From assembly GCA_965218465.1 (NCBI GenBank), contig OZ244623.1:2959549-3023548 (forward strand): a stretch of 64,000 nt of DNA, read 5' to 3'. Under the pieces are notes generated by a model. That model had not been told where the DNA came from and ran no database searches. It worked only from the letters and a program-made list of their open reading frames with translations. Shown in pieces: positions 5,906-24,212 of this stretch. Both the position numbers and the translations under genes were made by a program. Each line of letters opens with the position of its first letter. Position 1 is the stretch's first letter. This stretch comes from Acidobacteriota bacterium (GTDB lineage: Bacteria > Acidobacteriota > UBA6911 > RPQK01 > G965218465).

Positions 5906-7423
5906 ATGGGAAAACCTACTGGTTTCAGGGAATTCGATCGCAAAACCGTCGGTTACCGTGACCCTCTCCAGAGACTGAAAGACTTCGCCGAAATCCTGGC
6001 GCCGACCGATGAAGACCTGCTCCGCACACAGGGTGCGCGTTGCATGGACTGCGGCGTTCCTTTTTGCCAGTCGCACTGCGGATGTCCCCTGGATAATCTG
6101 ATTCCGGAATGGAACGACTTGGTCTATGAGGGTCGGTGGAAAGAGGCCTTGCACCGATTGCACCAAACCAACAATTTCCCCGAATTCACCGGCCGAACTT
6201 GCCCCGCGCCCTGCGAAAGCGCCTGTGTGTTGGGCATTACCGATCCACCAGTCACCATCAAGAACATCGAGAACGCAATTGTTGACCGTGGTTTCGCGGA
6301 AGGCTGGATTCAACCTGATCCTCCCCAACGGCGCACAGGGAAAAGTGTCGCTATTGTCGGCAGTGGACCTTGCGGTCTGGCGGCAGCAGCCCAGTTGAAC
6401 CAGGCTGGACACTGGGTCACCGTCTACGAAAGGGCTGATCGAGTCGGTGGCCTGCTCATGTATGGAATCCCCAACATGAAGCTGGGCAAGGATGTAGTGC
6501 AACGTCGAGTCGACCTGCTGCGCGCGGAAGGCGTGCAATTTGTTACCGGTATGGAGATCGGACTTTCGCGCTTCCCACCGCCGGCCACTGCGAAAAGATC
6601 CCGGGATGTCGAAACAGGAAAGCACCCGGCGCGATTGCTGGAACAGCATGAAGCCTTATTACTTGCCACCGGAGCAACCCGACCATTCGATCCGATCGAG
6701 AATTGCCCAGGACGCCACCTCAAAGGGATCCATCTTGCCATGGACTTCCTGACTCAAACCACCCGGAGTCTACTGGACTCCAAGCTGCGCGCCGGTAGCT
6801 ATTTGTCGGCAAGCAATCGAAAGGTGATCGTGATCGGTGGGGGCGACACGGGAGCCGACTGCATCGGCACTTGCCTGCGTCATGGCTGCTCCGGCATCGT
6901 CAATTTCGAGTTGATGCCAAAGCCTCCGGTGAAACGAAGCAGTAATAATCCGTGGCCTGAGTGGCCGCGTATCTATCGGGTCGAATACTCCCACCAAGAA
7001 GCCCGCCACCGGTTCGGAGAAGATCCCCGGTCTTTTTCCCTTTTGGCCAAGCGCTTCGAGGCCGACGACCAAGGATGGGTGCGAGGTGTGACCACTACAG
7101 AGGTGGATTGGTCCTGTCCCTCTTCAGTAGCGCCTTTCAGCGAGATTGAGGGGAGTGAACGGTTCTGGCCGGCCGATCTGGTCCTTCTTGCAGCCGGCTT
7201 TCTGGGGCCGGAACTTGATTTGACCAGGGGTCTGGGGCTGGAAACGCAGCGTCCTCGTTCCAACTGGGAGACATTTAAGGCTACCGTCCCAGAGTATTCC
7301 ACCAATGTCGAGGGGGTCTTTGCCGCGGGCGATTGCCGCCGCGGGCAATCGCTGGTGGTTTGGGCTATCCAGGAGGGCCGAGGAGCAGCCCGCGCCATCG
7401 ACAAATTTCTCTGCGACCGGTAA
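5906..7423 (+). CDS. gltD: Glutamate synthase small subunit (NADPH-dependent, FAD/[4Fe-4S])
   Basis: [13 protein letters not shown]... Cys clusters ([13 protein letters not shown]...CPAPCESAC), [14 protein letters not shown] dinucleotide fold, directly downstream of gltB. ATG 5906 with gggaag RBS. Confidence 0.93.
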
Positions 7424-7983
7424 ACCGGCTCTCGGCCCCACTTTGGCAACGGTCATAACAAGCGTCCTGACCCAAGGAAGACCGTAGTCGACATCAATGG
7501 GCTTTGAGTAACGCTCCCCAAAAGCCTCAGTAAGAACAACAACCTCGATCTCAGAGGTTTGCTGTGTTCATGCTGCCAATACGCCCTGATAAACAATTTC
7601 AAACTCTTTTCTTGATTCAACAGGATAATAATCGATTGTCAAGTTGGAATCTTGGAGGTTCAAAGATGATGAAATCATTTACTGAATGAGGTTTCCAGGG
7701 TTGGAATTTCTTGACAGTCAAGATAATTTTATTGTAGAGCTTGGAACACTGTTAGAAAGTCAAACACGACTTGTCTCTGAGGGGGAACCGACATTGCCGA
7801 AACTACGCCTGGAACCTAAGATCAAAGCCCCAATTACGGAAACGGAGTATGGTCAATACAAGGATCTGCTTCAAAAAGCGAAAGCGAACGCAGGCGATCA
7901 TCATGTTCTTGTTGATCTGGAGGAAGGTGAAAACTCCACCTATGTGCGCAAGGCGATCAATTTTGTTGCCGGGAAAGAAGGTA
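7169..7983. repeat. Direct repeat copy 1 (~815 bp, ~96-97% identical to 17734..18549): gltD 3' end + intergenic promoter region + 5' end of wHTH-protein gene
   Basis: By-eye alignment: homology begins at ccggccgatctggtcc (7169 / 17734) and ends at gggaaagaaggta (7983 / 18549). Scattered substitutions and one 1-nt indel, so not an assembly duplicate. Confidence 0.8.
7600..7796 (+). promoter_or_regulatory. AT-rich promoter-like region with TTGACA -35-like hexamer (7711-7716) and strong SD (gaggggga) before a TTG start; duplicated at ~18166..18357
   Basis: ttgacagtcaagataattttattgtagagc; gagggggaaccgacaTTG. Low GC relative to surroundings. The -10 element is not clean. Confidence 0.25.
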
Positions 7984-8078
7984 AGGGGACGGTCATGGGA
8001 ACAGGGGGAGCAGTTTGGAGCGAGGATCGGTTCGAGGGGGTCCAATTCCGGTTTGTCGGCCAAACAAGAGCTGCTTGA
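7797..8078 (+). CDS. Truncated/chimeric paralog of the wHTH protein at 18358..18822 (first 62 aa shared, then unrelated tail); probably a non-functional remnant
   Basis: MPKLRLEPKIKAPITETEYGQYKDLLQKAKANAGDHHV.VDLEEGENSTYVRKAINFVAGKEG is identical to copy 2 up to the repeat boundary at 7983, then diverges. TTG start with SD. Confidence 0.3.
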   Translation, partial: PKLRLEPKIKAPITETEYGQYKDLLQKAKANAGDHHVLVDLEEGENSTYVRKAINFVAGKEGKGTVMGTGGAVWSEDRFEGVQFRFVGQTRAA

Positions 8079-8167
8079 TGTGTCGATTCCGAGCGCCATG
8101 CCCCCTGAGTAGCGCTCTTTGATGATTTATCGAATGGCTGGGACGAATTCAGCCAGCGAGGTAGAGT

Positions 8168-8530
8168 ATGACCAAAGCTGACAAGGACCGTTATCTTGCC
8201 GCCGGCGGCACTCTTGCTACCGTAATCAACGCCTTGGGACTTGCGTTCGGGCTCTTTTACATCGATAGGAATCCCCGGCTCGCCGTGTGGATCGTTGTTG
8301 CCAGTATCGTTATTTACGCTGTTTTGAGGCTCGCCTTGGGCTATTGTGACTTCAAATGGCAGCCCTCCGGATCTGCGGATCAGAGCGATGGCGGTGGCCG
8401 TCTCTTAAAAGGGAACGCTGAGGTCAACTTCCCGGACAAGCTCGTTTATGAGGCAGACCTTTCAGGAACTCGACTGGAGATCGATCTGAGGCGGAAGCAT
8501 AACACCGACTTCATTCCGTCGAGCAATTGA
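8168..8530 (+). CDS. Small membrane protein (2 predicted TM helices), unknown function; first gene of island operon
   Basis: MTKADKDRYLAAGGTLATVINALGLAFGLFYIDRNPRLAVWIVVASIVIYAVLRLALGY... Two hydrophobic helices. Tightly followed by the next ORF (23-nt gap). Confidence 0.5.
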   Translation: MTKADKDRYLAAGGTLATVINALGLAFGLFYIDRNPRLAVWIVVASIVIYAVLRLALGYCDFKWQPSGSADQSDGGGRLLKGNAEVNFPDKLVYEADLSGTRLEIDLRRKHNTDFIPSSN

Positions 8531-8552
8531 TAGTCCGCCAGCCAAGAAAGCG

Positions 8553-10220
8553 TTGATGGAAAGCCTGAACCACGACCGCGACTTCGCCAATCTTCTGCTG
8601 ATCGTTCTGAAGGTTCTGCTGGTCATCTTCATCGGGTTGCAGAGTCTGCTCAATCAACTCGGATTGAGTTCCGATGGCATCACCGGTGTCGTCAACGCGA
8701 CGCCCTCCTCGCAGACGAGCCGCGACGGTGCCTTTCAAGTATCGTTTCATACACTCTTCTACTCCCCGGGAGCCGCATACACGGTCATCGACCTCGACAG
8801 CTACGTCACGGTCTGGCGATGTCTCGAGCAAGGTGCTGCTGATGAGTCCTTCTGTCCGATAACCGATGAGGGCTTGCAGCAACTCGAGAGTCTGGGAAAG
8901 GATGACCTCCTGCCCGACTGGCTTCAGGCCCAATGGAGCCAACTCGACGTTACACGAAAGCTGTCCAGGCCTCAACCGAGGGCGCCGGGTTCCGGTCCAA
9001 GAGCCGGGGAGCGATCGGATTCGCTGCACAATGAGACCTTCGATCTGAATGCGATACCGGGAACGTACCGGGTCATTTACCGCGTCACCTTCGAGGCGCC
9101 GCCCGAGAGTCCTAACCCTGACCGCTACTACGCGCACTGGAAGACGTCTGCCCCCGCTACCGAGTCAGGCGAGCAGTCGGATGGAGACACTTGGGAACAC
9201 CCAACGGGGTTTGAGATCTTCTACGACAGCAAGGATCCGGGGGAGTGGCAACTCCCTCCATTGGAAATCATTCAGGGGCGTTCGGCGCGGATGTCCGCGC
9301 AGCTTGATGGCTTTCGACTCGAGGCAGGAGGGGCTCGCGTCAACGATGGGAAGGCTCGAATCGGGCTTTCGAAGAGAGGCCGGGCCAACTGGGCCTTCGT
9401 CTCGGACTTCAGAAACATCACTTTGGGAAGAGACATTCAACACGACGTACTCATCACATCCAAGATCACTGAGATCGGGGCCAATTTTTTCAAGGTGGAA
9501 GATGATCCCAATCCGATCTTGATCGGGACCGCCGACACTGCGGACAATAGGGAAGTTTATGCAGAGTTCCTGAGATTCGACGATGAGAGCGGAACCTTCA
9601 TCGAGGAAGAATTTCGGGAGATGAACGTTGGCGATGCGGTCTACTATGAATTGAGGCGGGGTTCGTCGCAGCGCGTGGCGCGATTAGTGCGCTTCGGTCA
9701 GAAGGCTGTCCCGGCCACCTTGCCAATCGTCGTCCGCCGAAACCTGCCACCCCGGGGCATCTATAATCCGGCGCCTGGGATTGCGGCGTTCCACTTCCCG
9801 GACGATGCCTATAACCACCCGCTCACCGAGGGTGGAGCGTTGGTCCATTACTTCAATCTCAATTTCCGTATCATCGATCCCGACGGCGCCAATCCTTCAG
9901 GATCCCCCAGTATCCATATTCCAAGAAGCGGATTCGAGAAGGTCGGGACTTGGCCGGAGCACTTCAGTCTCGAAGAGTATAAGAATGACACCCTACTCAC
10001 ATTTACTCCAGATCGTCTCTACGAAGGCGCAGATCAAGAGCAGCGTCTATTAGAGCTTCAACTCAAGGTCTCGGACGAGTGGAACAGGTCGTCGCTGGCT
10101 ACGACCATGGTACTGAGAATCCGGTACCGCACATTGGACACCCTCTACGACGCCATTCGACAGATTCAGGACTTGGAGCTAAAGGTTCTGAGTGGTACCG
10201 GATCGGGAGGCTTGCAGTGA
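8553..10220 (+). CDS. Membrane-anchored (N-terminal TM) 555-aa protein with large extracytoplasmic domain; no recognisable family
   Basis: N-terminal LLLIVLKVLLVIFIGLQSLL anchor. Long ORF with coding-like composition. Stop overlaps the next start (GTGATG at 10218-10222). Confidence 0.5.
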   Translation: MMESLNHDRDFANLLLIVLKVLLVIFIGLQSLLNQLGLSSDGITGVVNATPSSQTSRDGAFQVSFHTLFYSPGAAYTVIDLDSYVTVWRCLEQGAADESFCPITDEGLQQLESLGKDDLLPDWLQAQWSQLDVTRKLSRPQPRAPGSGPRAGERSDSLHNETFDLNAIPGTYRVIYRVTFEAPPESPNPDRYYAHWKTSAPATESGEQSDGDTWEHPTGFEIFYDSKDPGEWQLPPLEIIQGRSARMSAQLDGFRLEAGGARVNDGKARIGLSKRGRANWAFVSDFRNITLGRDIQHDVLITSKITEIGANFFKVEDDPNPILIGTADTADNREVYAEFLRFDDESGTFIEEEFREMNVGDAVYYELRRGSSQRVARLVRFGQKAVPATLPIVVRRNLPPRGIYNPAPGIAAFHFPDDAYNHPLTEGGALVHYFNLNFRIIDPDGANPSGSPSIHIPRSGFEKVGTWPEHFSLEEYKNDTLLTFTPDRLYEGADQEQRLLELQLKVSDEWNRSSLATTMVLRIRYRTLDTLYDAIRQIQDLELKVLSGTGSGGLQ

Positions 10221-11248
10221 TGTCAAGAGCGGTGCTGTGGAGTAAAACTCAAGTCGTGTTGTTGATTGCGATGGTTTTCTTCTCGGTCTTTGCCTCGCCC
10301 TGTCTCGGACAAGAGAGTTGCCCCCCGATCGGAAACAGATCCAGGGTGGTCTCTGACCTCAGTTTCGTCGAGACGATGGCCGAGGGAGAGTTCCTCAGGC
10401 TCGTAGGCAGACGGCTGGTCCGCGATAATATGGCGGATTGTGGAGTCAACCCGAGAGATCTGGACAGTTTCATCCTGCTGGTTTCTCCGCCACTCCAGGG
10501 TGCTGAGCGTGGGAACAACAGCTCTTTTCTCCGCGATATCGAGTTGCAACTCTACTTGGTCAGATCTCGTGAAGAGAAGCGGCCCGATGGCACCAGCGGA
10601 ATCGCCACTCAAGAGATAGCTCTTCCTCAGGCTCCCACGGCATTGACAGAAATATTGGCGGGGTCAGAGCTGGTGGAGGCTACGCTCAACAGGATTGAGT
10701 CGCTTACCATGGTCTTCATTCCTCGCATCTTCGTCGGAGAGCCCATCCGGCGGCTGAGCTCTCCCCAGATCGGAAACGGTCCTGGGACGCCCACTCCAGG
10801 CGACACCGAAGAGCCCACGATCTATGTTTCGCCCGTTGTCTTGGTCCCCACGCGAGCGCTCCGGAGCCGCACTGAGAATCCGCCGGTGTTGCTCAGTACT
10901 TGGATGACCAACCTGGAACGGCTCGGAATCAAGTACCTCAAAGCGATGTTGGACGACTTCGAGAAATCGTCTGGACAGAAGCTCTTGACGCGTCGGACTC
11001 TGATGTTGTTCAGAGGTTGGCAGCCTGTGGAGGGACCCATCGGTTTGGGAAGGAGCGAACAGCCCGGGCTACCCTACACCTGGACCGAGTTAGTCAATCT
11101 TGAGCAGGCCGTTGGAGCAAGAGAGACCGGCCAGTACCTTCAGCGTTTCCAAGACTTCTGGAAAGCGGTCGAGAAAAACATCGATACTTTCCGTCAAGAG
11201 GACCAGGACAAACTCAAGGCTATTTTTGATCAAGAGAAGTCAAACTAG
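10220..11248 (+). CDS. Secreted hypothetical protein (signal peptide MSRAVLWSKTQVVLLIAMVFFSVFASPCLG)
   Basis: ATG overlaps the upstream stop. Classic Sec signal peptide. The track ORF 10079.. is extended upstream by alternate-start logic. Confidence 0.5.
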   Translation: MSRAVLWSKTQVVLLIAMVFFSVFASPCLGQESCPPIGNRSRVVSDLSFVETMAEGEFLRLVGRRLVRDNMADCGVNPRDLDSFILLVSPPLQGAERGNNSSFLRDIELQLYLVRSREEKRPDGTSGIATQEIALPQAPTALTEILAGSELVEATLNRIESLTMVFIPRIFVGEPIRRLSSPQIGNGPGTPTPGDTEEPTIYVSPVVLVPTRALRSRTENPPVLLSTWMTNLERLGIKYLKAMLDDFEKSSGQKLLTRRTLMLFRGWQPVEGPIGLGRSEQPGLPYTWTELVNLEQAVGARETGQYLQRFQDFWKAVEKNIDTFRQEDQDKLKAIFDQEKSN

Positions 11249-11269
11249 ATCGGGATCGCTCTGTCCGTG

Positions 11270-12859
11270 ATGCTAACCTCAATCTATCAGCACAAGACTC
11301 ATAACCGTAGGGAGGTGGACGGTTCACGTTCCAGAAGAATCGTCGGGTTGCTCTTGTTGCTGTTAACGGTGCTGACGGGAGAGGGGCTGTCACAGTGCAC
11401 ACGAGACCGGATTGCCGAAGCGGCCCGCAAAGTCGGTGCGCTCGAATCATCGACTCTCGACATTTTCGGGGCAGGCCGCTTCACCGTCGCCGACGAGGGT
11501 AGCGCTCGCGCCTTCCTGGTGGAGGCCAACCATCTGGCGGCGCGTCTCAGAGAGGTCCTCGGAATCGTCACCCCTCCCTCGAGGGACGAGGTGGTTCCCA
11601 ATGAAGCGGCCGGGCGAGGGTTCAATGCAAGTGAAAAACAAGGACTACTCTGCCTGCAAGACACACTGCAGAAATTTTATGAAAAGGTCGGGGAGGGCCT
11701 GTTGAGGGCGGAAGATCATCTCGCCCGGGCATCGATCCTATTGCATCACAGCGTCATTTTTCCGGAAACCGACTTTCCGCGAACTCCCGGCGCCTTGCTC
11801 GGTCGTGCACTGCGCGACTATGAATCCGTCTACACGGCCGCGCTCCAGGTTTTAGAAGATAGAGGTGGAAACTATGCAACCTATGGCTTGGCCGTCAAGC
11901 TCGGAATCGACCTCAACCGCCCGGCGCCTGCTTTCGAGCATCTCGACGAATTCGTCAAGCTTGCGGTTGCGACCTCGATTCAGTGGCCCGATCACGGCTC
12001 TCAGATCGGAACTGTCCTGAAACAGGTTTTGTGCGCCGGCTACCACCTCTATCCCGGCCGGCGCGATACCATCGAACGCGCCGACCAGATCTTGATTCGC
12101 CTGGATCGGGGCAATCTAGCCGTCTCCGCCCCGGTTTTCCGATTCGTCGGGCGCGTCAACAAGATTCTGCGGCTCTCCGAGATATCGTTCGAGAAAGTCG
12201 GTTCGCCTTGCGAAAGCGGGTCTCCGGGTCGGCTTCTCCGGTTTGGAGAACCGATGGTCGAACTTACCGCCCCGGAGGTGCTGCTGGAAAGGCTGGCAGA
12301 AGCCGAGGAGGAGCTGAGCTCTTCTCTCAGTCTGGTGTCGGAGAGGGGCCTGGGATACTCTTCTTCTTCCCTCAAACGCTGGATGCCGTTCGAGTCATAT
12401 AGCGAGCTTCTTTACCGGATTGCTGAGACGCTCGCACCATCCTATAGCGCGGATAGCGAGACCTGGGAACTCAGGAGTGCCCTCAGGACGCGATCTTGCA
12501 TGGCGCTGATTCGCGGGCTCCAATCGATCGGGATCACAGTCGAGTCTGAGTCGAGGGAACGTCTTCGACGAACCCTCCTTGAGCGAATCGACGAACATGT
12601 CGGCGATCTCTTTGCCCGACTATGGTTCAAGAAAGCAGCCGAGTTCGCGGCTCACTTTTCCCAGCAGAACTATCGAATGTTGCTCCAGGAAAGCCAGTGG
12701 AAACGGCTCAACACTCTTCTAGCTCGGGCCTATTTCATGGACTGTCAGAATGCGAACGCGCTCAGGCGTCTCCGTTCCTCGGACACCACCATAACCAAGC
12801 TGCGAGAGTTCAAAACAACCTATCATGAGAACGGCCTCGACGTCAGCTGCCCGGACTGA
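11270..12859 (+). CDS. Secreted, predominantly alpha-helical hypothetical protein (~529 aa)
   Basis: Hydrophobic N-terminus (RIVGLLLLLLTVLTGEG). 19-nt gap after the previous gene. ATG at 11270; the track's 11267 is a GTG. Confidence 0.45.
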   Translation: MLTSIYQHKTHNRREVDGSRSRRIVGLLLLLLTVLTGEGLSQCTRDRIAEAARKVGALESSTLDIFGAGRFTVADEGSARAFLVEANHLAARLREVLGIVTPPSRDEVVPNEAAGRGFNASEKQGLLCLQDTLQKFYEKVGEGLLRAEDHLARASILLHHSVIFPETDFPRTPGALLGRALRDYESVYTAALQVLEDRGGNYATYGLAVKLGIDLNRPAPAFEHLDEFVKLAVATSIQWPDHGSQIGTVLKQVLCAGYHLYPGRRDTIERADQILIRLDRGNLAVSAPVFRFVGRVNKILRLSEISFEKVGSPCESGSPGRLLRFGEPMVELTAPEVLLERLAEAEEELSSSLSLVSERGLGYSSSSLKRWMPFESYSELLYRIAETLAPSYSADSETWELRSALRTRSCMALIRGLQSIGITVESESRERLRRTLLERIDEHVGDLFARLWFKKAAEFAAHFSQQNYRMLLQESQWKRLNTLLARAYFMDCQNANALRRLRSSDTTITKLREFKTTYHENGLDVSCPD

Positions 12860-12910
12860 AATGGATCATGCAGCTCGAAGAACTCACGATGTGACCCTGG
12901 GAGCGCAACT

Positions 12911-15900
12911 ATGACTCGGAAATTTTTCCGGATTTGGCTGGCAGTCATAGTCTCTGTGGGCGTGATCTCCAACGTGAGCTCTTCGCCCGTCCTTCCAGCG
13001 ACCCAACCGCCAGCAACCGTCGCCCAACAAGTCTCGAGCCGGAGCCAAGTTCAGGTATTGGACCGACTCGTTCGGGAGTATGCGAGCCTACCCGTTTTCG
13101 ACTTGACCCTTGCTCATCGCCACCAGAGCTTCGAACTTCAGTACGACCGGGCCTACTCGATCGCCCGGGAGATGCAGCAACTGGCAAACACAGCCGAGCA
13201 GTCTTTTCTGAGAAGCTACCCCACGACTCTGAACCGGCAGGAAATGGAAGCGAACGTCAGAATCCATGTTCTGATGGCCATCGTCGGCGCTCGGCTCGGC
13301 TATGAGGAGTTTTTCGAAAGACACCTGGAAGTCGCTTTGGATAGAATTCGGCGCCACTATGGCTACCGCGGTCGTGACGCACGGCTGGAGTTGAAAAAAA
13401 TCGCTGATGGGGGGTCAAGTATCGAAAACTCCTCCCTTGCGGACACGTTCTGTCGCCAGGCGAGTACGATTCTCTCGCAGCCCACCGTGGGGCATCCCCG
13501 CAATCCGCCTTCCTGCCTTTCTCCGGACCCGGAGCCGAGTTTCTTCGAGCGCTTGCTGAGAAATGCTGGCGATCCCAAAGAGCTGGTCTTCGACCGCAGC
13601 GCGAACATAACCAATCTCTCCGGGTTCGCCATCCGGGTAGCCAATTACGCCACGGCCTCGCCACAGTCGATTCTTTTCGCCAACGCGCTGACGAAGGTGC
13701 TTGCCGACCCTCTGGTCACGAACTGGTTCATCCGTTTCTACCGGGATCAGGCTGTCGACGTTCCGACGGTAGACAGGCGCATCCGTTCGGATGTTCCGTC
13801 GTCATCGGATCGGCAACAACCTCCTCCGCTCTATGCACAGCAAGGTCGGGTCAATATTCAATCGAGCGACTACTTCGTCGTCGACCGGGGTGATCGGCAG
13901 AAAATCGAGTGGCTAGGCCATGTCCGGAACCTTTTTGAGCTGAAGCAGCAGATCTCTATCAAAGTTCGGATACCGGTTGGTGAATATCTGGTTTATCCGA
14001 CTAGACAGGCCTTTCCAACAGAGTTCTCACTCAAGCCGAACCTGATCGTCACGACCAGTTCCTTCGAGCCCATGCCGGGGTTTGACCTCTATTTGAGTCC
14101 CTCGGAATCGAGTGTCAGCGTCGTCCCGAAACAGAAACCTGGTTCAATCAAGGCTTCTCTGTTCAAACCGGACTTCAAGCTCCTTCGTTTCGATGTTGGA
14201 ATTGACGACAGTTCAAGGGACATCAGTGGAGGCGTCGAGCTCCGACTATTTCACCGCATCAATCGCTACCTCGCGGTTCAAACTCAATTGGAAGGCGTTT
14301 TTCTCAAACACCACGACAACATCAACCCGCTCAACCCCCGGATTTTCCGCCGCGACTCTATTCCGTTTGAGAATTTCACAAGCCGTGAGGTCCAGTTCGA
14401 TATCGGTCCCGTCATGCGTTTCGACCGTTGGCAACTGGCGGTCATGGAGAGCTTTCGCCTGGTTAATCGCAGTGGCTGGGATTCTTCGGGAGAGATCGGC
14501 CAGTTCTTCTTCAACCTCGGTTATCTGATCCCTGCGCGGGGTCAGGTCGGCCTTTACGCAACACGTGCCAACAAACAAGAGTCGGTCGTGAATCGGGTGC
14601 GCCTCGAAACGACTCTCGTTGAAGAGATCTATCTCAGGGTCACAGATCAGATTGGAGTGAACTTCAATATTCACTTGGGAAAGGGTTTTTCCGTGGAAGG
14701 GGCGTTTGGCCATCTCGACACGATTCGGCGGAAAAATGCCTGGGGTGGGGTCGTGCGCACTTACCTGCCACCGATCTGGAAAAGGGTTCAACTGACGACC
14801 GAGTTCGGCTTCAACGAAGGCTTTGTTGCTCAGAGTAACAACTGGCGGTTCGGCGTAGGCCTTCGTTTTGGAGGATGGGGCCGGGCCGGGGGGCCGGCAC
14901 CTTCGACCGTGCTCGGCCGCTCGGCCGGGCCTGAACCGGTATTCGTACCCCGTGTGCGCTATGAGACTCTGACGCGAGTCGTGCGAGATGGGAATCGCAG
15001 GCCAGTGGCCGATGCCGGGCCCGATCAATTGGACTTGGTTCCGTCCGAACGGTTGCCGGGCGGAGATCTCGGGAGGAAGGTCGTTATCGACGGAAGCAGT
15101 TCCTTTGATCCGGATGGCGACGAGATCAGCTACGAGTGGACTAAATTGGACGACTGCCCTGATTCCATCACGTTCGAGGATTTACAGGGAACCGGATCGG
15201 TGGGACCTGCGTCGGCCGCCATCTCCTTCGCGATCAACAATGGTGAGAGCTGTAGTGTCCAGTTGATCGTCGAAGATAGCCTGGGGTTGAAGGGCGATCC
15301 CGACATCGTCCGGGTGTCGGTCCAACGGGGGCCTCTCCCGGTCATCGTCAGTTTCACCGCCCAACCGGCGACGATCCCAATGGGCGCGGAGTCGACGTTG
15401 AGCTGGGAAACCCGCGATGCGGAAACGGTTGAAATCACTAATGTTTCGAACTCGAGTACGCTTCCGGTCAATGGAAGTGTCTCCGTAACGCCCTCGGTCA
15501 CGACCACTTACGTCCTTTCGGCCTGCAACGCGGCGAGAGAGTGTGCGACAGCGCAGACCACCGTGGTCGTCAAGGCAGATTTGCCGGTCATCGTCAGTTT
15601 CACCGCCCAACCGGCGACGATCCCAATGGGCGCGGAGTCGACGTTGAGCTGGGAAACCCGCGATGCGGAAACGGTTGAAATCACTAATGTTTCGAACTCG
15701 AGTACGCTTCCGGTCAATGGAAGTGTCTCCGTAACGCCCTCGGTCACGACCACTTACGTCCTTTCGGCCTGCAACGCGGCGAGAGAGTGTGCGACAGCGC
15801 AGACCACCGTGGTCGTCAAGGCAGATTTGCCGGTCATCGTCAGTTTCACCGCCCAACCGGCGACGATCCCAATGGGCGCGGAGTCGACGTTGAGCTGGGA

Positions 15901-17095
15901 AACCCGCGATGCGGAAACGGTTGAAATCACTAATGTTTCGAACTCGAGTACGCTTCCGGTCAATGGAAGTGTCTCCGTAACGCCCTCGGTCACGACCACT
16001 TACGTCCTTTCGGCCTGCAACGCGGCGAGAGAGTGTGCGACAGCGCAGACCACCGTGGTCGTCAAGGCAGATTTGCCGGTCATCGTCAGTTTCACCGCCC
16101 AACCGGCGACGATCCCAATGGGCGCGGAGTCGACGTTGAGCTGGGAAACCCGCGATGCGGAAACGGTTGAAATCACTAATGTTTCGAACTCGAGTACGCT
16201 TCCGGTCAATGGAAGTGTCTCCGTAACGCCCTCGGTCACGACCACTTACGTCCTTTCGGCCTGCAACGCGGCGAGAGAGTGTGCGACAGCGCAGACCACC
16301 GTGGTCGTCAAGGCAGATTTGCCGGTCATCGTCAGTTTCACCGCCCAACCGGCGACGATCCGAGTGGGCGCGGAGTCGACGTTGAGCTGGGAGGTGCAAA
16401 ACGCGACCCGAGTGGACATCACCAACAGCCAAGACTTTGTACCATCCTTGCCCAGCACCATCCCGCTAATCTCCAGCGGAGTTGTGATGCCTTCGGCGAC
16501 CACGACCTACACGCTGACCGCGTCCAATGATGACGGAGCGACCGCATCGGCCCAGTTGACCGTGCTGGTTCTACCCGTTCTTCCGCAGATTCTGAGTTTC
16601 GCTGCGACTCCAACACAGATCCTGACCGGGGAGTGCACGACTTTGAGTTGGGAGACAGAGGGAGCAGATTCGGTCTTCCTTACGAATTTGACCTCCGGTG
16701 ATACTCCAATCGCCGTCAACCCGGACGACAGCGTGATCGTTTGTCCCACTCAAACGACGGCTTTCACTCTCACAGCGACGAATTCCGCAGATGAGGTCTC
16801 GACGGCGCAGGTGACGGTCTATGTCCAAGAAGACTTGCCTGTGATCGTCAGCTTTACCGCCAAACCTACTGACATCTTCCAAGGTAAGAGTAGTGAGTTG
16901 TGCTGGGAGGTGGAAAATGTAGAAAGAGTGTCCATTACCAATATCCCCAACGGCGACAACCTGCCCGCCATGGGATGCAAGACCGTCCAGCCAACGGGAA
17001 CGACGACCTATACGCTGACCGCAGTGGGTAATGGGGGCGTCGTCCAAGCCACGGCGACGGTGGTGGTGAGATCCACACCCTCGTTCCCATTCTAG
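12911..17095 (+). CDS. Giant (1394 aa) secreted repeat protein: signal peptide, predicted outer-membrane beta-barrel-like segment, PKD-like module, 7 Ig-like ~82-aa modules; candidate inverse-autotransporter-like adhesin
   Basis: Signal peptide MTRKFFRIWLAVIVSVGVISNVSS. Amphipathic alternating-hydrophobic stretch ~14100-14900 ending ...NNWRFGVGLRFGGW (aromatic-terminated, typical of a last beta-strand). VIDGSSSFDPDGDEISYEW PKD-like motif. Seven modules of pattern P.I.SF.A.P..I..G...TL.WE......V.I.N.......G......P..TTTY.L.A.N......A...V.V. Confidence 0.65.
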   Translation: MTRKFFRIWLAVIVSVGVISNVSSSPVLPATQPPATVAQQVSSRSQVQVLDRLVREYASLPVFDLTLAHRHQSFELQYDRAYSIAREMQQLANTAEQSFLRSYPTTLNRQEMEANVRIHVLMAIVGARLGYEEFFERHLEVALDRIRRHYGYRGRDARLELKKIADGGSSIENSSLADTFCRQASTILSQPTVGHPRNPPSCLSPDPEPSFFERLLRNAGDPKELVFDRSANITNLSGFAIRVANYATASPQSILFANALTKVLADPLVTNWFIRFYRDQAVDVPTVDRRIRSDVPSSSDRQQPPPLYAQQGRVNIQSSDYFVVDRGDRQKIEWLGHVRNLFELKQQISIKVRIPVGEYLVYPTRQAFPTEFSLKPNLIVTTSSFEPMPGFDLYLSPSESSVSVVPKQKPGSIKASLFKPDFKLLRFDVGIDDSSRDISGGVELRLFHRINRYLAVQTQLEGVFLKHHDNINPLNPRIFRRDSIPFENFTSREVQFDIGPVMRFDRWQLAVMESFRLVNRSGWDSSGEIGQFFFNLGYLIPARGQVGLYATRANKQESVVNRVRLETTLVEEIYLRVTDQIGVNFNIHLGKGFSVEGAFGHLDTIRRKNAWGGVVRTYLPPIWKRVQLTTEFGFNEGFVAQSNNWRFGVGLRFGGWGRAGGPAPSTVLGRSAGPEPVFVPRVRYETLTRVVRDGNRRPVADAGPDQLDLVPSERLPGGDLGRKVVIDGSSSFDPDGDEISYEWTKLDDCPDSITFEDLQGTGSVGPASAAISFAINNGESCSVQLIVEDSLGLKGDPDIVRVSVQRGPLPVIVSFTAQPATIPMGAESTLSWETRDAETVEITNVSNSSTLPVNGSVSVTPSVTTTYVLSACNAARECATAQTTVVVKADLPVIVSFTAQPATIPMGAESTLSWETRDAETVEITNVSNSSTLPVNGSVSVTPSVTTTYVLSACNAARECATAQTTVVVKADLPVIVSFTAQPATIPMGAESTLSWETRDAETVEITNVSNSSTLPVNGSVSVTPSVTTTYVLSACNAARECATAQTTVVVKADLPVIVSFTAQPATIPMGAESTLSWETRDAETVEITNVSNSSTLPVNGSVSVTPSVTTTYVLSACNAARECATAQTTVVVKADLPVIVSFTAQPATIRVGAESTLSWEVQNATRVDITNSQDFVPSLPSTIPLISSGVVMPSATTTYTLTASNDDGATASAQLTVLVLPVLPQILSFAATPTQILTGECTTLSWETEGADSVFLTNLTSGDTPIAVNPDDSVIVCPTQTTAFTLTATNSADEVSTAQVTVYVQEDLPVIVSFTAKPTDIFQGKSSELCWEVENVERVSITNIPNGDNLPAMGCKTVQPTGTTTYTLTAVGNGGVVQATATVVVRSTPSFPF
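15338..16358. repeat. Perfect tandem DNA repeat, 246-bp unit x4 (15338, 15584, 15830, 16076) plus identical first 37 nt of a 5th unit; inside the giant-protein gene
   Basis: Unit start ccggtcatcgtcagtttcacc recurs at an exact 246-nt period. Three minus-strand ORFs (15508..15753, 15754..15999, 16000..16245) have identical translations, confirming 100% identity. Diverged copies continue to ~17090. Confidence 0.9.
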
Positions 17096-17733: not shown

Positions 17734-17992
17734 TCCGGCCGATCTGGTCCTTCTTGCAGCCGGCTTTCTGGGGCCGGAACTTGATTTGACCAGGGGTCTG
17801 GGGCTGGAAACGCAGCGTCCTCGTTCCAACTGGGAGACATTTAGGGCTACCGTCCCAGAGTATTCCACCAATGTCGAGGGGGTCTTTGCCGCGGGCGATT
17901 GCCGCCGCGGGCAATCGCTGGTGGTTTGGGCTATCCAGGAGGGCCGAGGAGCAGCCCGCGCCATCGACAAATTTCTCTGCGACCGGTAAACC
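17734..17992 (+). pseudogene. gltD 3'-terminal fragment (last ~86 codons) within direct repeat copy 2
   Basis: [83 protein letters not shown] is near-identical to the gltD C-terminus. No 5' part present. Confidence 0.8.
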
Positions 17993-18549
17993 GGCTCTCG
18001 GCCCCACTTTGGCAACGGTCATAAAAAGCGTCCTGACCCAAGGAAGACCGTAGTCGACATCAATGGGCTTTGAGTAACGCTCCCCAAAAGCCTCAGTAAG
18101 AACAACAGCATCGATCTCAGAGGTTTGCTGTGTTCATGCTGCCAATACGCCCTGATAAACAATTTCAAACTCTTTTCTTGATTCAACAGGATAATAATCG
18201 ATTGTCAACTTGGAATCTTGGAGGTTCAACGATGATGAGATCATTTACTGAATGAGGTTTCCAGGTTGGAATTTCTTGACAGTCAAGATAATTTTATTGT
18301 AGAGCTTGGAACACTGTTAAAAAGTCAATCACGACTGTCTCTGAGGAGGAACCGACATTGCCGAAACTACGCCTGGAACCTAAGATCAAAGCCCCAATTA
18401 CGGAAACGGAGTATGGTCAATACAAGGATCTGCTTCAAAAAGCGAAAGCGAACGCAGGTGATCATCATGTTTTTGTTGATCTGGAGGAAGGTGAAAACTC
18501 TACCTATGTGCGGAAGGCGATCAATTTTGTTGCCGGGAAAGAAGGTATC
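17734..18549. repeat. Direct repeat copy 2 (see 7169..7983)
   Basis: See copy 1. Confidence 0.8.
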
Positions 18550-19944: not shown

Positions 19945-22900
19945 ATGCCTATGAAAAGCAATCGTCTCTTTTTCTGGATTGGGTTGGTGCTCCTCTCACT
20001 GGTTTCTCTGTTGGGAGCCTATCGTTATTTTGGCGAGGCCTTCCCGCTGATCAACCTGGATCTTCAAATGGATAGGGCCACTGCGCTGGAGCGGGCCCGC
20101 CAAGTGGCCGATCGTCTCCAATGGGGTCCGACGGAATTTGAGCAGGCGGCTTCTTTCGGTTCCGATTCGCAGGTCCAGAATTATGTCGAACTGGAGGGCG
20201 GAGGTAAGGCAGCTTTTGCGCGGTTGCTGGAGAGTAACCTCTTCTCTGCCTACACCTGGCGAGTTCGTCACTATCGTGAGCAGGAGACCACTGAGAGTCT
20301 GATTCGCTTTACGCCGGCTGGTGAGCTGTGGGGATTTCGCGAGCAACTTCCCGAAGATCAACCTGGCGCGACGCTGACGGAGGAAGAGGCTCGAAACCTG
20401 GCCGAAACCCGTGCCACCGGGGAGCTAGGTATCGAGCTGGAGCCCTACCAACTGGTGGAGCATGCCCAGGAAGTGCAACCCGGAGGCCGCACCGATCACA
20501 GGCTGGTTTACGAGCACCGTCGCCGGGATATTGGAGAAGCTCGTTATCGCCTGCGTTTGATGGTTAGTGGAGACCGCTTCACGGAACTAGAGCGCTTTAT
20601 TAAGGTTCCTGAGGCGTTCACCCGACGCTACCAGGAGATGCGCTCTTCCAATAACACGATTGGAGTGGTTGGAGGCCTGGCGATGGTGCTGGTCTATATC
20701 CTGGGTGGATGCGTCATCGGGCTCTTTTTCCTCCTGCGGCAGGGTTGGGTGTTGTGGAAGAAGGCGCTTTTCTGGGGTCTTTTCGTCGCCTTTCTGCAGG
20801 GTCTGGTGGTTCTCAACCAGCTCCCACTGGCTTGGATGAATTATGACACGGCTTTATCTCGCCAGGGCTTTCTAGCTAATCAAGTGACGGCGGCGCTGCT
20901 TCAGTTCGTGGTGCTGGGAGTTCTGTTGACGCTTTCTTTCATGGCCGCCGAGACGCTCTCACGGAAAGCTTTCCCCCACCATATTCAGTTCTGGCGGTTG
21001 GGATCTGCAGGCGTCGCCAATACGACGCCCGTCTTGGGGTCTACCATTGCAGGATACCTGTTGGTACCGGTCTTCTTCGGGTATGAAGTGGCCCTTTATT
21101 TCTTCTCCAACAATGTTTTGGGTTGGTGGTCCCCTTCCAATGCCCTGTTGCAGCCGGACGTCTTGGCCAACTATCTTCCCTGGCTTTCCTCGATAGCCAT
21201 TTCTTTTCAGGCCGGTTTTTGGGAGGAATGTCTGTTTCGAGCAGTTCCCTTGGCAGGTGCGGCGTTGTTGGGACGACATTTCGGTAAACCCAAACTCTGG
21301 ATCGCCGTCGCCTTGGTCGTTCAGGCACTGATTTTCGGTGCGGGACACGCCCCTTATCCGACCCAGCCTGCCTATGCGCGAGTGGTGGAGTTGATCATCC
21401 CCTCGCTGTTCTTTGGAGCCATCTACTTGAGGTTTGGTCTGTTACCGGCCATCGTGCTTCACTACGCCTTTGACGTGGTTTGGTTTGCGATCCCCCTGTT
21501 TGTTTCCACCGCCGCCGGGGTCTGGATCGATCAGGTCCTGGTCGTGATTCTCGCCTTGGCGCCGCTGGCGGCTATTGGAGTGGTCCGATGGCGCGCGGGC
21601 AAATGGAGCGGGTTGTCACCCGACAAGCTGAATGGATCTTGGGAGCCAGCTCCGCCTTCAGAACCCGAAATCGAGCCGGAGGCGCCGCCCGAACGGAGCG
21701 CCCCCACTCTGCTCCCGGCCTTACGCTCCGGGTTGCTGGTGAGTGGAGTTGTCGGCTTGGTGGTTTGGGCCTTATTGGGACGATTCCAAACCGACGTCCC
21801 TGAGTTGAAGGTTGATCGGAAGCAGGCACTGGAGATTGCCCGGGGCACGCTGGAGGATCGAGGCGTTCAAATTCCCGCAACTTGGCAGGAGATGGCCTCG
21901 ATTGAAGAAGGATCGACAGAGGTGGAACGCTTTATCTGGCAAACGGCCGGCAAGGAAACCTATCGGGAACTGGCCGGTTCTTATCTCCGTGGCGCCCGCT
22001 GGAAAATCCGCTATGTAACTTTCGAAGGAAATGTGGAGGATCGTGCTGAGGAGTACCAGATTTTTGTCGGCGATTCGCAATCGGTTCCCCGTCTTCTCCA
22101 TAGGCTTCCCGAGGCCAAGGAGGGCGTTTCCTTGGCCGAAGAGGAGGCGCGTTCGGCTGCTCTGACGGCGATTTCAGCGCGTTTTGGACTCAACCCTGAA
22201 GATCTGGAGGAGATTTCCGCCAAACCGTCCAAGCGCCCCGCCCGCCAGGACTGGACCTTTACCTTCGCCGATCAGACCCGGCAACTACCTCGGGGCGAGG
22301 CACGGGTAGCGGCTGTGATAGCCGGAGATGAAGCGGCCCACGTCTACCGCTTGATTCACGTGCCCGAGGAATGGGAGAGGGAGGAACGCAGCCGGCGCAA
22401 TTTGGCCAGAATCATCGGGATTCTGTGTGGAGTGCTGATCGCTCTGGGGGCAGTCGCCGGAGGGGTTGTGGCCGTGGTCAGTTGGACCCGAGGGAAGTTC
22501 TCGCCTCGGACATTGCTGTGGTTGGCTCCGGCTCTGTTTCTGCTCAATCTGGCGGGTTTATTGAATGGATGGCCGAGTCTGAAGTCGAATTTGAGCACTG
22601 CTCAGCCTCTTAGCCACCAGTTACTGGCACTGATAGCGGGCGGAGTGATCGGGATGCTCCTGCTCTCTCTCCTGTTGGCGTTGTTGTTCGGCTGGGTCAA
22701 GACTGCCCTCCACTGGGGTGGTGGGCGCACAACCAGCAGAATCGCCTTGGGAATTGCTCTGGGAGTGGTGGCCAAGTCGCTCCAGGTGCTGGCCGCCGCC
22801 TTTAGTCCCGCCACGGTTCCCGCTTGGCCCGAGTTCGGTGCTCTGGACGATTTTCTGCCCGTGTTGAGTCCGTTGGTCGCTTCGGTTACCCAATACCTCA

Positions 22901-23313
22901 CGTTGCTGGCCGTCCTGCTGCTGGTGATGGCCGCAGTGGACGTCCTGACACACCGCTGGAGCCGTCGTCGGCTCGCCGGAGGTCTCCTTCTCCTGGTGGG
23001 GCTGGCGCAGCAGGGTTCCAGCTTTGAAAGCCTGGGTGGATGGCTGATCAAAGGCCTGCTATTGGGTACTGCTCTGCTGGCGGCCTACTTCTTTTTGCGT
23101 GCTGATGTGGGCCTGATCCCGTTGGCTCTCGCGTCCTATCTGGCACTCGGTCTTTTGCAGCAGGCAGTCGATCAAGCTTATCCAGGAGCCTGGCTCCACT
23201 ACAGCTTGGCGGCGGTGGGTCCGTTGATAGCCGGTTGGCTTTGTTGGAGACATTTGGACGCCCCAAGTGAAGAAGCTGTCGCCGTCTTGCCCTCGTTGGA
23301 AGCGGAAATCTGA
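19945..23313 (+). CDS. Large (1122 aa) polytopic membrane protein with CPBP (CAAX protease / Abi, PF02517-like) intramembrane metalloprotease domain and two related extracytoplasmic domains
   Basis: FWEECLFRAVPL (EExxxR motif) and FGAGHAPYP (FxxxH motif) within a block of TM helices. Internal repeat of a soluble region (LESNLFSAYTWRVRHYREQETTESLIRF... vs ...LAGSYLRGARWKIRYVTFEGNVEDRAEEYQIF...). More TM helices at the C-terminus. Confidence 0.65.
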   Translation: MPMKSNRLFFWIGLVLLSLVSLLGAYRYFGEAFPLINLDLQMDRATALERARQVADRLQWGPTEFEQAASFGSDSQVQNYVELEGGGKAAFARLLESNLFSAYTWRVRHYREQETTESLIRFTPAGELWGFREQLPEDQPGATLTEEEARNLAETRATGELGIELEPYQLVEHAQEVQPGGRTDHRLVYEHRRRDIGEARYRLRLMVSGDRFTELERFIKVPEAFTRRYQEMRSSNNTIGVVGGLAMVLVYILGGCVIGLFFLLRQGWVLWKKALFWGLFVAFLQGLVVLNQLPLAWMNYDTALSRQGFLANQVTAALLQFVVLGVLLTLSFMAAETLSRKAFPHHIQFWRLGSAGVANTTPVLGSTIAGYLLVPVFFGYEVALYFFSNNVLGWWSPSNALLQPDVLANYLPWLSSIAISFQAGFWEECLFRAVPLAGAALLGRHFGKPKLWIAVALVVQALIFGAGHAPYPTQPAYARVVELIIPSLFFGAIYLRFGLLPAIVLHYAFDVVWFAIPLFVSTAAGVWIDQVLVVILALAPLAAIGVVRWRAGKWSGLSPDKLNGSWEPAPPSEPEIEPEAPPERSAPTLLPALRSGLLVSGVVGLVVWALLGRFQTDVPELKVDRKQALEIARGTLEDRGVQIPATWQEMASIEEGSTEVERFIWQTAGKETYRELAGSYLRGARWKIRYVTFEGNVEDRAEEYQIFVGDSQSVPRLLHRLPEAKEGVSLAEEEARSAALTAISARFGLNPEDLEEISAKPSKRPARQDWTFTFADQTRQLPRGEARVAAVIAGDEAAHVYRLIHVPEEWEREERSRRNLARIIGILCGVLIALGAVAGGVVAVVSWTRGKFSPRTLLWLAPALFLLNLAGLLNGWPSLKSNLSTAQPLSHQLLALIAGGVIGMLLLSLLLALLFGWVKTALHWGGGRTTSRIALGIALGVVAKSLQVLAAAFSPATVPAWPEFGALDDFLPVLSPLVASVTQYLTLLAVLLLVMAAVDVLTHRWSRRRLAGGLLLLVGLAQQGSSFESLGGWLIKGLLLGTALLAAYFFLRADVGLIPLALASYLALGLLQQAVDQAYPGAWLHYSLAAVGPLIAGWLCWRHLDAPSEEAVAVLPSLEAEI

Positions 23314-23735: not shown

Positions 23736-24212
23736 TTGGGTCGCATCGTTCTGACAGGGACGGAGAATTCTGCTGGAGACAATGCGACCATAGACACCCA
23801 GGACTACATCGATTGGGTCGGCACGGAATTCGACGACAACCAGCGGCCCTGCCGGAGCAGCAATCCGATCAGTCTGGGCTCATCGGTCGAACCTGTTTCC
23901 AGCTCATTCAGTTGGACCACCAACAGCTACGATGGTCTGGACCGGGTCACCTCGATCACGACTCCCGACGGGCAATCGGTCACGATGACTTATGAAGACA
24001 ACCGGGGGCTGGTGACCGATCAGGTTGGGGCCAAGAAGCTGATTTTCTACGATGGGTTGGGTCGAATCAGTCAATTTCGAATGGCCAACCCGGCCACTAA
24101 CTCCGTGACGGCAGCCAGCGCCTACGATACCGGCTACAGCTACGACGAGGAGGTCCGGAGAAGGGGAGGTCCGGAGAAGGGGAGGTCCGGAGAAGGGGAC
24201 AGTTATCATTAA
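23736..24212 (+). pseudogene. RHS/YD-repeat protein fragment (internal piece only)
   Basis: YDGLDRVTSITTPDGQSVTMTYEDNRGLVTDQVGAKKLIFYDGLGRISQF...AYDTGYSYD are YD-repeat motifs. No N-terminal domain and no C-terminal toxin/RHS core. Ends in a 16-bp x3 tandem repeat. Abuts the IS remnant. Confidence 0.5.
24141..24188. repeat. 16-bp tandem repeat (ggtccggagaagggga) x3
   Basis: Read directly. Period not a multiple of 3. Confidence 0.8.

What the first reader, a model, noticed from the sequence alone, without database searches (positions are those of the whole stretch)
15338..16358. Four 100%-identical 246-bp tandem repeats encoding Ig-like modules inside the giant protein gene
Exact 246-nt periodicity (unit starts 15338, 15584, 15830, 16076). 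Identity is perfect enough that three minus-strand 81-aa ORFs have identical translations. The 246-bp unit encodes an 82-aa module. Older, diverged modules follow (three more, ~40-60% identical). Perfect in-frame tandem units imply very recent expansion by slipped-strand or unequal recombination. They also predict repeat-number (stalk-length) variation between cells or strains, a known adhesin-variation mechanism. They are also a classic site of assembly collapse or expansion.
Basis: seen in the sequence. Interest (0 to 1): 0.6.

Follow-up and report, generated by a model that had tools for sequence, protein, structure and literature searches.

The report
Variable-length Ig-repeat stalk in surface protein
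Four letter-perfect 246-bp tandem copies encode Ig-like modules in a 1,394-residue, probably outer-membrane-anchored surface protein, and close relatives carry one to five copies, so this is an ordinary "variable-length stalk" repeat in a protein family nobody has yet described.

Summary
Units at 15338, 15584, 15830 and 16076 are 100% identical. The perfect period-246 match runs 15338-16361, which is four units plus 40 nt of a diverged fifth.

The host gene (12911-17095, +) encodes 1,394 aa, so it is not giant. A high-confidence AlphaFold model (pLDDT 96) shows the 82-aa unit is a 7-strand Ig-like beta-sandwich. It matches no Pfam or NCBIfam family, but related modules occur in more than 600 unannotated proteins.

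The predicted copy-number variation is real:
- A strain 99.6-99.85% identical over 23.7 kb has two units.
- A 3.19-Mb circular genome has four.
- A ~93%-identical lineage, carried on plasmid-like contigs where context was checked, has one to five.

Expansion always amplifies the second unit type.

Upstream of the repeats lie a signal peptide, a predicted 12-14-strand outer-membrane-type beta-barrel, a conserved linker and a PKD domain. This layout resembles inverse autotransporters (intimin/invasin) but shows no sequence homology to them.

My best reading is a Periscope-type variable-length surface stalk, changed by intragenic recombination or slippage. Surface exposure is inferred, not shown.

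Novelty: a new member of a known kind, with moderate interest. The gene sits in a conserved 5-gene cassette found both on small plasmids and in the chromosome.

The parts
12911..17095 (+). Host gene, 1,394 aa. Layout: signal peptide, N-terminal region of unknown fold, beta-barrel, linker, PKD, then 7 Ig-like modules.
   Evidence: ORF list and translation. The exact protein is on record in NCBI+ENA on a 3.42-Mb contig.
12911..12985 (+). Sec-type signal peptide (MTRKFFRIWLAVIVSVGVISNVSSS)
   Evidence: Read from the translation: basic n-region, hydrophobic core, small-residue c-region. No predictor was run.
14171..14869 (+). Predicted 12-14-strand antiparallel beta-barrel (aa 421-653). The last strand, WRFGVGLRF, looks like an OMP beta-signal.
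   Evidence: AF2 model of aa 300-891 has mostly pLDDT >90 here, with 14 strand segments. Foldseek hits OMPLA, the invasin beta-domain 4e1t, OmpG and FadL. The core, aa ~490-700, is conserved in ~100 protein clusters. No Pfam or PDB sequence hit.
14870..15025 (+). Conserved linker (…PVFVPRVRYETLTRVVRDGNRRPVADAGPDQ)
   Evidence: Nearly invariant columns in the 28-sequence family alignment A3. A role as a segment threading the barrel lumen is inference only.
15026..15322 (+). PKD domain (K319L-like), diverged copy
   Evidence: The family profile hits KIAA0319L PKD at 1e-25 and ColH PKD in PDB sequences. All 28 family members match PF22352. The window's own copy scores below the Pfam cut-off.
15338..15583 (+). 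Repeat unit A1 (82-aa Ig-like module)
   Evidence: 0 mismatches to the other three units. Fold.
15584..15829 (+). Repeat unit A2
15830..16075 (+). Repeat unit A3
16076..16321 (+). Repeat unit A4
16322..16582 (+). Diverged module A' (87 aa, 59% aa identity to A). Its first 40 nt are identical to the start of A.
16583..16837 (+). Diverged module B (85 aa, 45% identity to A)
16838..17092 (+). Diverged module C (47% identity to A) plus a short C-terminal tail, RSTPSFPF
8073..17090 (+). Five-gene cassette: 120-aa membrane protein (8168-8530), 554 aa (8556-10220), 342 aa (10220-11248), 529 aa (11270-12859), and the repeat protein. It is shared at ~93% nt identity with plasmid-like contigs.
   Evidence: BLASTN boundaries. 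Gene contexts of L002-L004 include relaxase/MobC, RepA_C, ParA, TA systems and IS240. The order of the last four genes (554, 342, 529 aa and the repeat protein) is conserved in a distant Acidobacteria MAG; the 120-aa gene found no match there.
7169..7983 (.). Left copy of an 815-bp direct repeat flanking the cassette. It includes the 3' end of gltD.
17735..18547 (.). Right copy of the 815-bp direct repeat (98-99% identical to the left copy)

Best explanation
The four identical 246-bp units are a real, recently amplified in-frame tandem array. Each unit encodes one 82-aa Ig-like beta-sandwich module of an exported protein.

The domain order is: signal peptide, N-terminal (probably periplasmic) region, 12-14-strand outer-membrane-type beta-barrel, conserved linker, PKD domain, 4 identical modules, then 3 diverged modules.

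The units are identical at the DNA level. Unequal homologous recombination or replication slippage between them therefore adds or removes whole modules without breaking the frame. Closely related strains and plasmid copies consequently carry 1-5 units.

The most likely consequence is a rod of variable length. It would set how far the conserved distal modules (A', B, C) project from the cell surface. This is a 'Periscope protein' mechanism, here in a diderm bacterium with an inverse-autotransporter-like architecture.

Shown: the repeat, its perfection, the Ig-like fold prediction, the copy-number variation, and the barrel/PKD predictions.
Inferred: the recombination mechanism, outer-membrane insertion, surface exposure of the array, and stalk function.
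For: Repeat and its perfection.

Module fold: pLDDT 96, 7 strands, and all best PDB matches Ig-like. The short Pro-containing junction 'KADLPVIVSF' matches what the Periscope paper describes for rod-forming arrays (PMC8201768).

Copy-number variation:
- L001 is 99.6-99.85% identical over 23.7 kb, is collinear, and has 2 units.
- L007, a 50x circular 3.19-Mb contig, has 4 units and differs from the window at only 8 nt across the gene.
- Members of the related protein clusters carry 1-5 units, with A', B and C always single.
- L010 has 5 units, with units 2-5 identical.
- Units within a locus are more alike than units between loci, which indicates concerted evolution.

Anchor:
- AF2 barrel with pLDDT >90.
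- Foldseek hits to OMPLA, the invasin beta-domain, OmpG and FadL.
- Distant relatives have an N-terminal OmpA peptidoglycan-binding domain, followed by this barrel domain, PKD and Ig modules.
- A PKD profile hit at 1e-25.
- Paired cysteines (ACNAAREC) are conserved in the first module of close relatives, consistent with an extracytoplasmic location.
Against: - No experiment or read-level data is available, so the exact count in this genome rests on the assembly.
- The window is the only assembly in which unit 1 is also identical to the others. L007, L001, L005 and L010 all keep a distinct unit 1. Part of the 'perfection' could therefore be a consensus or polishing artefact, or a gene conversion.
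- Surface exposure is not shown. An even-stranded barrel leaves the C-terminus on the periplasmic side, so display requires threading through the barrel lumen. I could not inspect the model coordinates for this.
- There is no detectable homology to inverse autotransporters.
- No recognisable distal ligand-binding 'head' exists, and one lineage lacks modules B and C altogether.
- Some alleles are frameshifted inside the array (P0014-16, P0023). These could be sequencing errors or pseudogenes.
Confidence: 0.7

Rival explanations
1. Assembly artefact. The number of units, and/or their perfect identity, was produced by the assembler or polisher (collapse, over-expansion or consensus homogenisation) rather than by biology.
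For: - Exact tandem repeats are classic mis-assembly sites.
- One single-unit allele (L011) comes from a short-read scaffold.
- Low-coverage contigs (3x-6x) show frameshifts within the array.
- Unit 1 is identical to units 2-4 only in the window. The sibling genome L007 keeps 4 differences in unit 1.
Against: - The same 4-unit length occurs in an independent circular 3.19-Mb contig at 50x coverage, from an assembly that differs from the window at 21 of 16,185 positions.
- Two-unit alleles carry unit-specific SNPs that would not survive a collapse.
- The array is ~1 kb. Single long reads would span that easily, if these multi-Mb and circular contigs are long-read assemblies, as their size and contig naming suggest. 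That is inferred and was not checked.
Confidence: 0.12
2. The array is real and variable, but it is not a surface stalk. The PKD/Ig modules stay in the periplasm, or they act as multivalent ligand-binding units (avidity) rather than as spacers.
For: - An even-stranded barrel puts both termini in the periplasm (strand count).
- There is no homology to the known barrel family that exports Ig arrays.
- No distinct distal head domain is present.
- Ig-like folds also occur in periplasmic chaperones (PMC4943183).
Against: - The architecture of PG-binding domain, barrel, strictly conserved linker and Ig array in relatives mirrors inverse autotransporters.
- PKD and Ig arrays of 7-8 modules are typical of extracellular proteins. 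At the usual ~4 nm per Ig-like domain (general knowledge, not measured here), such an array would be roughly 30 nm long, which would be awkward in a periplasm.
- Rapid copy-number turnover is typical of exposed proteins (PMC8201768).
Confidence: 0.2
3. Copy-number change is selectively neutral churn in a mobile, dispensable cassette. The repeats vary because identical DNA recombines, not because length is used by the cell.
For: - The cassette is on small plasmids and is flanked by an 815-bp duplication in the chromosome.
- The gene appears split or frameshifted in several contigs, for example L005 with 286 aa + 843 aa.
Against: - All full-length alleles keep the frame and whole-module register, with spacing exactly 82 aa.
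- The four-gene order is conserved down to 23-42% protein identity, which implies function.
- Tandem identical domains carry a misfolding cost that argues for a benefit (PMC8201768).
Confidence: 0.25

Closest known systems
Periscope Proteins (SasG, Rib, Sgo_0707/SHIRT, CdrA; Whelan et al. 2021, PMC8201768)
   Same: Both have tandem arrays of folded domains that are (near-)identical at the DNA level. Repeat number differs between close strains. Ig-like folds have N and C termini at opposite ends and short Pro-containing linkers. The array lies between the anchor and a conserved distal part.
   Different: The repeat domain is an unnamed family, not G5/E, Rib, SHIRT or Big_6. The anchor is a predicted outer-membrane beta-barrel at the N-terminal side, not LPXTG. 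There is no recognisable ligand-binding head. The organism is an uncultured environmental bacterium, and the gene is partly plasmid-borne. Rod shape and surface display are untested.
Inverse autotransporters / type Ve secretion (intimin, invasin, YeeJ, FdeC; PMC4943183)
   Same: The order of parts matches: signal peptide, periplasmic domain (peptidoglycan-binding in relatives), beta-barrel, conserved linker, C-terminal array of Ig-like domains whose number varies. The predicted barrel superimposes on the invasin beta-domain (TMt 0.52).
   Different: There is no sequence or profile similarity to IAT_beta (Pfam: no hit; hhalign probability 0.1%). The barrel may have 14 rather than 12 strands. 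OMPLA and OmpG match as well as invasin does. Relatives carry OmpA-like instead of LysM. The passenger begins with PKD and uses a different Ig-like family. There is no C-type lectin tip.
K319L-like PKD domain proteins (PF22352; KIAA0319L, ColH PKD)
   Same: The domain at aa ~706-804 belongs to this family at profile level (1e-25 to KIAA0319L).
   Different: This covers only one domain of the protein. The repeated 82-aa unit is not a PKD domain by sequence.

Membership tests
Periscope Proteins | [quoted passage not shown] | tested here: met
   4 x 246 bp at 100% identity. The unit folds as a 7-strand sandwich with pLDDT 96.
Periscope Proteins | Repeat-number variation between closely related strains | tested here: met
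   2 versus 4 units between strains more than 99.6% identical. 1-5 units across the three 90%-identity clusters.
Periscope Proteins | Cell-surface attachment, with the array projecting a functional domain away from the cell | not testable with these tools
   A signal peptide and a predicted OM-type barrel make surface anchoring plausible. Exposure, and a distal functional domain, are not demonstrated.
Periscope Proteins | The array forms an elongated rod | not tested
   Only a single module was modelled. The termini are at opposite ends of the strand order and the DLP linker is short, which is merely suggestive.
Inverse autotransporter (type Ve) | [quoted passage not shown] | tested here: not met
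   No Pfam hit at E<=10 for aa 400-700. 0 of 28 family members hit IAT_beta. hhalign against YeeJ+YchO gives probability 0.1%. There is only fold-level similarity to 4e1t (TMt 0.52), equalled by OMPLA.
Inverse autotransporter (type Ve) | C-terminal passenger of tandem Ig-like domains, exported through or with the barrel | tested here: inconclusive
   A C-terminal PKD plus 7 Ig-like modules is present. Export is not testable, and the model coordinates could not be inspected for lumen threading.
Inverse autotransporter (type Ve) | Periplasmic peptidoglycan-binding domain (LysM) in many members | tested here: not met
   The window protein has no LysM or OmpA hit. Distant relatives carry OmpA (PF00691) instead.
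PKD domain (K319L-like, PF22352) | Profile match over the domain | tested here: met
   The family profile hits KIAA0319L at 9.6e-26, and 28 of 28 members hit PF22352. The window's own copy reaches only 12-16 bits, below the 27-bit cut-off.
Named bacterial Ig-like families (Big_1..13, I-set, FN3) for the 82-aa unit | Pfam or NCBIfam match above the curated cut-off | tested here: not met
   No significant hit. A few related proteins carry precomputed I-set hits. Fold-level Ig-like only.

The most novel reading that the evidence does not exclude
The protein belongs to an undescribed family of about 130 clusters at 50% identity. The family has a previously unannotated outer-membrane beta-barrel followed by a strictly conserved linker. 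This would work as a second, independently evolved 'inverse-autotransporter-like' export module for PKD/Ig arrays.

In this lineage the protein travels with three or four conserved accessory proteins of unknown function, as a plasmid-borne cassette that can integrate into the chromosome. The identical repeats would then tune the reach of a mobile, horizontally traded surface organelle in soil or sediment Acidobacteria-like bacteria.
Probability: 0.3. Interest if true: 0.65.

Novelty: new member of a known kind. Interest (0 to 1): 0.42.

Why it matters
The repeat itself illustrates a known principle. DNA-identical domain repeats give surface proteins heritable, quickly reversible length variation. 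Here that principle is documented outside cultured pathogens, in long-contig assemblies of environmental metagenomes. Alleles with 2, 4 and 5 copies coexist in a single sample.

The more useful by-product is the host protein. It has an unannotated barrel domain, an unannotated and very widespread Ig-like module (more than 600 hits), and four co-transferred proteins with no known family. Together these look like a self-contained, plasmid-mobile surface-display cassette.

If the barrel really exports the array, it would broaden the known set of type V-like secretion architectures. It would also offer a compact display scaffold from a phylum with almost no characterised surface proteins.

Tried and rejected
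- Pfam and NCBIfam on the whole protein gave no family for the unit or the barrel.
- PADLOC and NCBIfam on the four upstream cassette proteins found nothing, so a defence-system reading has no support.
- Rfam on the whole window found nothing.
- Inverse-autotransporter membership is rejected at sequence level (Pfam at E<=10, 28 family members, and local hhalign against E. coli YeeJ/YchO).
- A PDB sequence search of the barrel found nothing.
- A PLSDB plasmid protein search found no match.
- The word-index search with the N-terminal 700 aa returned only three close relatives. The exhaustive HMMER search was needed to find the family.
- An exact look-up of the window protein's contig failed, so the source record and organism name were not obtained.
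- Cluster look-ups of eight housekeeping proteins returned no names.
- Taxonomy therefore rests on weak evidence. The only genome-collection relative is an Acidobacteria MAG, and a few module hits come from Terriglobales and Thermoanaerobaculia.
- A C-terminal sorting signal (PEP-CTERM or T9SS CTD) was considered and rejected. The tail is only ~8 residues (RSTPSFPF) with no TM segment.


Full report
**1. Observation**

Tandem Repeats Finder reports a single large array in the window: 15338-16392, period 246, 4.3 copies, 99% matches, no indels.

A direct comparison shows the four units starting at 15338, 15584, 15830 and 16076 are identical at all 246 positions. The perfect period-246 self-match begins exactly at 15338. 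It ends at 16361, 40 nt into a fifth, diverged unit.

The units are in frame with a + strand ORF, 12911-17095, encoding 1,394 aa. The protein therefore contains four identical 82-aa segments. Three related but diverged segments follow, with 59%, 45% and 47% aa identity.

They are a by-product of the repeat. 'Giant' is an overstatement, since gltB in the same window is longer.

**2. What the unit encodes**

Neither Pfam nor NCBIfam recognises the 82-aa unit.

I built a profile from the window's modules and those of a distant hit. It retrieved more than 600 proteins, almost all unannotated. They share the consensus xPxIxSFTAxPxxIxxGxSxTLSWxVxxAxxVxI…TTTYTLTAxN…VTVTV.

With a 60-sequence alignment, AlphaFold2 gives a 7-strand all-beta model with mean pLDDT 96. 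Every top Foldseek match in the PDB is an immunoglobulin-like sandwich: SoxY, NCAM2 Ig, FcεRI, ICAM-1, CEACAM, Rib, GhpA and the MpIBP adhesin. TM-scores are 0.6-0.7 but E-values are only ~1e-2.

So 'Ig-like' is right at the fold level. The module belongs to a widespread family that has no name.

**3. The rest of the protein**

An exhaustive HMMER search with residues 1-700 found 129 clusters.
- About 100 share only residues ~490-700.
- About 18 share ~310-700.
- Six share the whole N-terminus.

Distant members have an N-terminal OmpA peptidoglycan-binding domain, then this conserved domain, then K319L-like PKD domains and Ig-like modules.

An AlphaFold2 model of residues 300-891, built with 28 family sequences, has mean pLDDT 81.7. 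It predicts 14 long antiparallel strand segments at residues 421-653, mostly with pLDDT >90. A conserved linker, a PKD domain and the first module follow.

Foldseek matches the strand region to outer-membrane barrels: OMPLA (TMt 0.52-0.56), the invasin transmembrane beta-domain 4e1t (TMt 0.52), OmpG and FadL. The C-terminal part matches SraP, GhpA and intimin D00-D0.

The family profile hits KIAA0319L and ColH PKD domains at up to 1e-25.

The barrel has no sequence match in Pfam or PDB, even at E<=10. None of the 28 family members hits IAT_beta. A local hhalign against the E. coli inverse autotransporters YeeJ and YchO gives probability 0.1%.

The layout is therefore like an inverse autotransporter as defined in PMC4943183, but the protein is not a detectable member of that family. 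I could not inspect coordinates, so the strand number (12-14) and the path of the linker remain open.

**4. Copy-number variation**

The window protein is on record (NCBI+ENA, 3.42-Mb contig). Its 90% cluster and two sister clusters contain many length variants. I counted modules in each:

| A units | Proteins |
|---|---|
| 1 | P0017, P0022, P0026, P0027, and the P0004 group |
| 2 | P0001, P0005, P0003, P0013, P0018, P0023 |
| 3 | P0002, P0020 |
| 4 | the window, P0010, P0019 |
| 5 | P0021 |

A', B and C are always single. The P0004 group lacks B and C. Spacing is exactly 82 aa, except for one 81-aa unit.

At the DNA level:
- L001 (3.34-Mb contig) is 99.6-99.85% identical to the window over 23.7 kb. 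It differs structurally only by having 2 units, which are 4 nt apart from each other.
- L007 is a circular 3.19-Mb contig at 50x. It has 4 units and only 8 nt differences from the window across the whole gene. Units 2-4 equal the window's unit, and unit 1 differs at 4 positions.
- L010, in the ~93%-identical lineage, has 5 units. Units 2-5 are identical and unit 1 differs at 6 nt.

Expansion thus repeatedly amplifies the second unit type while unit 1 keeps its own signature. Units within a locus are more alike than units between loci.

One sample (ERZ25067264) holds 4-copy (50x), 2-copy (11x) and 5-copy (3x) alleles.

Caveats:
- One 1-copy allele is from a short-read scaffold and may be collapsed.
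- Several low-coverage alleles are frameshifted inside the array.
- Only the window has unit 1 identical to the rest. That points either to gene conversion or to a consensus artefact.

**5. Mechanism**

Identical 246-bp direct repeats are substrates for unequal homologous recombination and for replication slippage. This is established knowledge and is the mechanism proposed for Periscope Proteins in PMC8201768.

Because the unit is 82 codons and one folded domain, every event keeps the frame and adds or removes one module. The variable units lie next to the PKD domain, and the diverged A'-B-C modules are distal. The simplest functional reading is a variable-length stalk that sets how far the conserved distal modules project. 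This step is inferred.

**6. Genomic context**

The gene is the last of five co-oriented genes (120, 554, 342, 529 and 1,394 aa). None has a Pfam, NCBIfam or PADLOC match.

The block 8073-17090 is ~93% identical to three contigs with plasmid or mobile hallmarks:
- L002: relaxase, MobC, PIN, resolvase and integrase.
- L003: RepA_C, ParA and toxin-antitoxin genes.
- L004: IS240 and ParA.

L003's ends overlap, which suggests a circle of ~18 kb.

In the chromosome, the block sits between gltBD and a small regulator gene. It is bracketed by an 815-bp direct repeat, 7169-7983 and 17735-18547, at 98-99% identity. The left copy contains the end of gltD. That pattern is expected from integration of a circular element by a single crossover. 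This is inference.

The order of the last four genes (554, 342 and 529 aa plus the repeat protein) is conserved at 23-42% protein identity in the only relative found in the genome collection, an Acidobacteria MAG. That argues for a functional unit.

**7. Verdict**

The phenomenon is a new example of a known kind, variable-length repeat surface proteins.

Added value comes from the undescribed barrel/linker/PKD/Ig family and the mobile cassette. Surface display, the adhesin role and the exact count in this genome still need reads or experiments.

Noticed in passing
window 7169-7983 and 17735-18547: An 815-bp direct repeat (98-99% identical) brackets the five-gene cassette. The left copy includes the 3' end of gltD, and the right copy holds a gltD fragment plus the start of a 154-aa HTH gene. 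This looks like the scar of a single-crossover integration of a circular element.
   Followed up: partly
window 8073-17090; L002, L003, L004: The whole five-gene cassette occurs at ~93% nt identity on plasmid-like contigs carrying relaxase/MobC, RepA_C, ParA, PIN/BrnT toxins and IS240. L003's ends overlap, giving an ~18-kb circle. PLSDB has no match.
   Followed up: partly
window 8168-12859: Four upstream genes (120-aa membrane protein, then 554, 342 and 529 aa, the latter three with signal- or TM-like N-termini) have no hit in Pfam, NCBIfam or PADLOC. The order of the 554-, 342- and 529-aa genes ahead of the repeat protein is nevertheless conserved in a distant Acidobacteria MAG (L006); the 120-aa gene found no match there.
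   Followed up: partly
L005 8841-12532; proteins P0014-P0016, P0023: Several alleles of the repeat gene are split or frameshifted, some inside the repeat array. All are on low-coverage contigs (3x-11x), so these could be sequencing errors or genuine pseudogenes.
   Followed up: no
window 24149-24199: A perfect 16-bp tandem repeat (GGAGGTCCGGAGAAGG x 3.2) lies near the end of a 158-aa ORF whose homologue in L001 has a weak RHS-repeat hit.
   Followed up: no
window 19945-23313: A 1,122-aa protein contains a single Rce1-like CAAX protease domain, which is unusually long for that family. The region has a strong negative AT skew (-0.20).
   Followed up: no
proteins P0004, P0024, P0025, P0028-P0030 (L004): A sister lineage lacks modules B and C entirely and ends after A' with a tail (RPKLFVPF) resembling the normal C-terminus. 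This suggests a second recombination between diverged modules.
   Followed up: no
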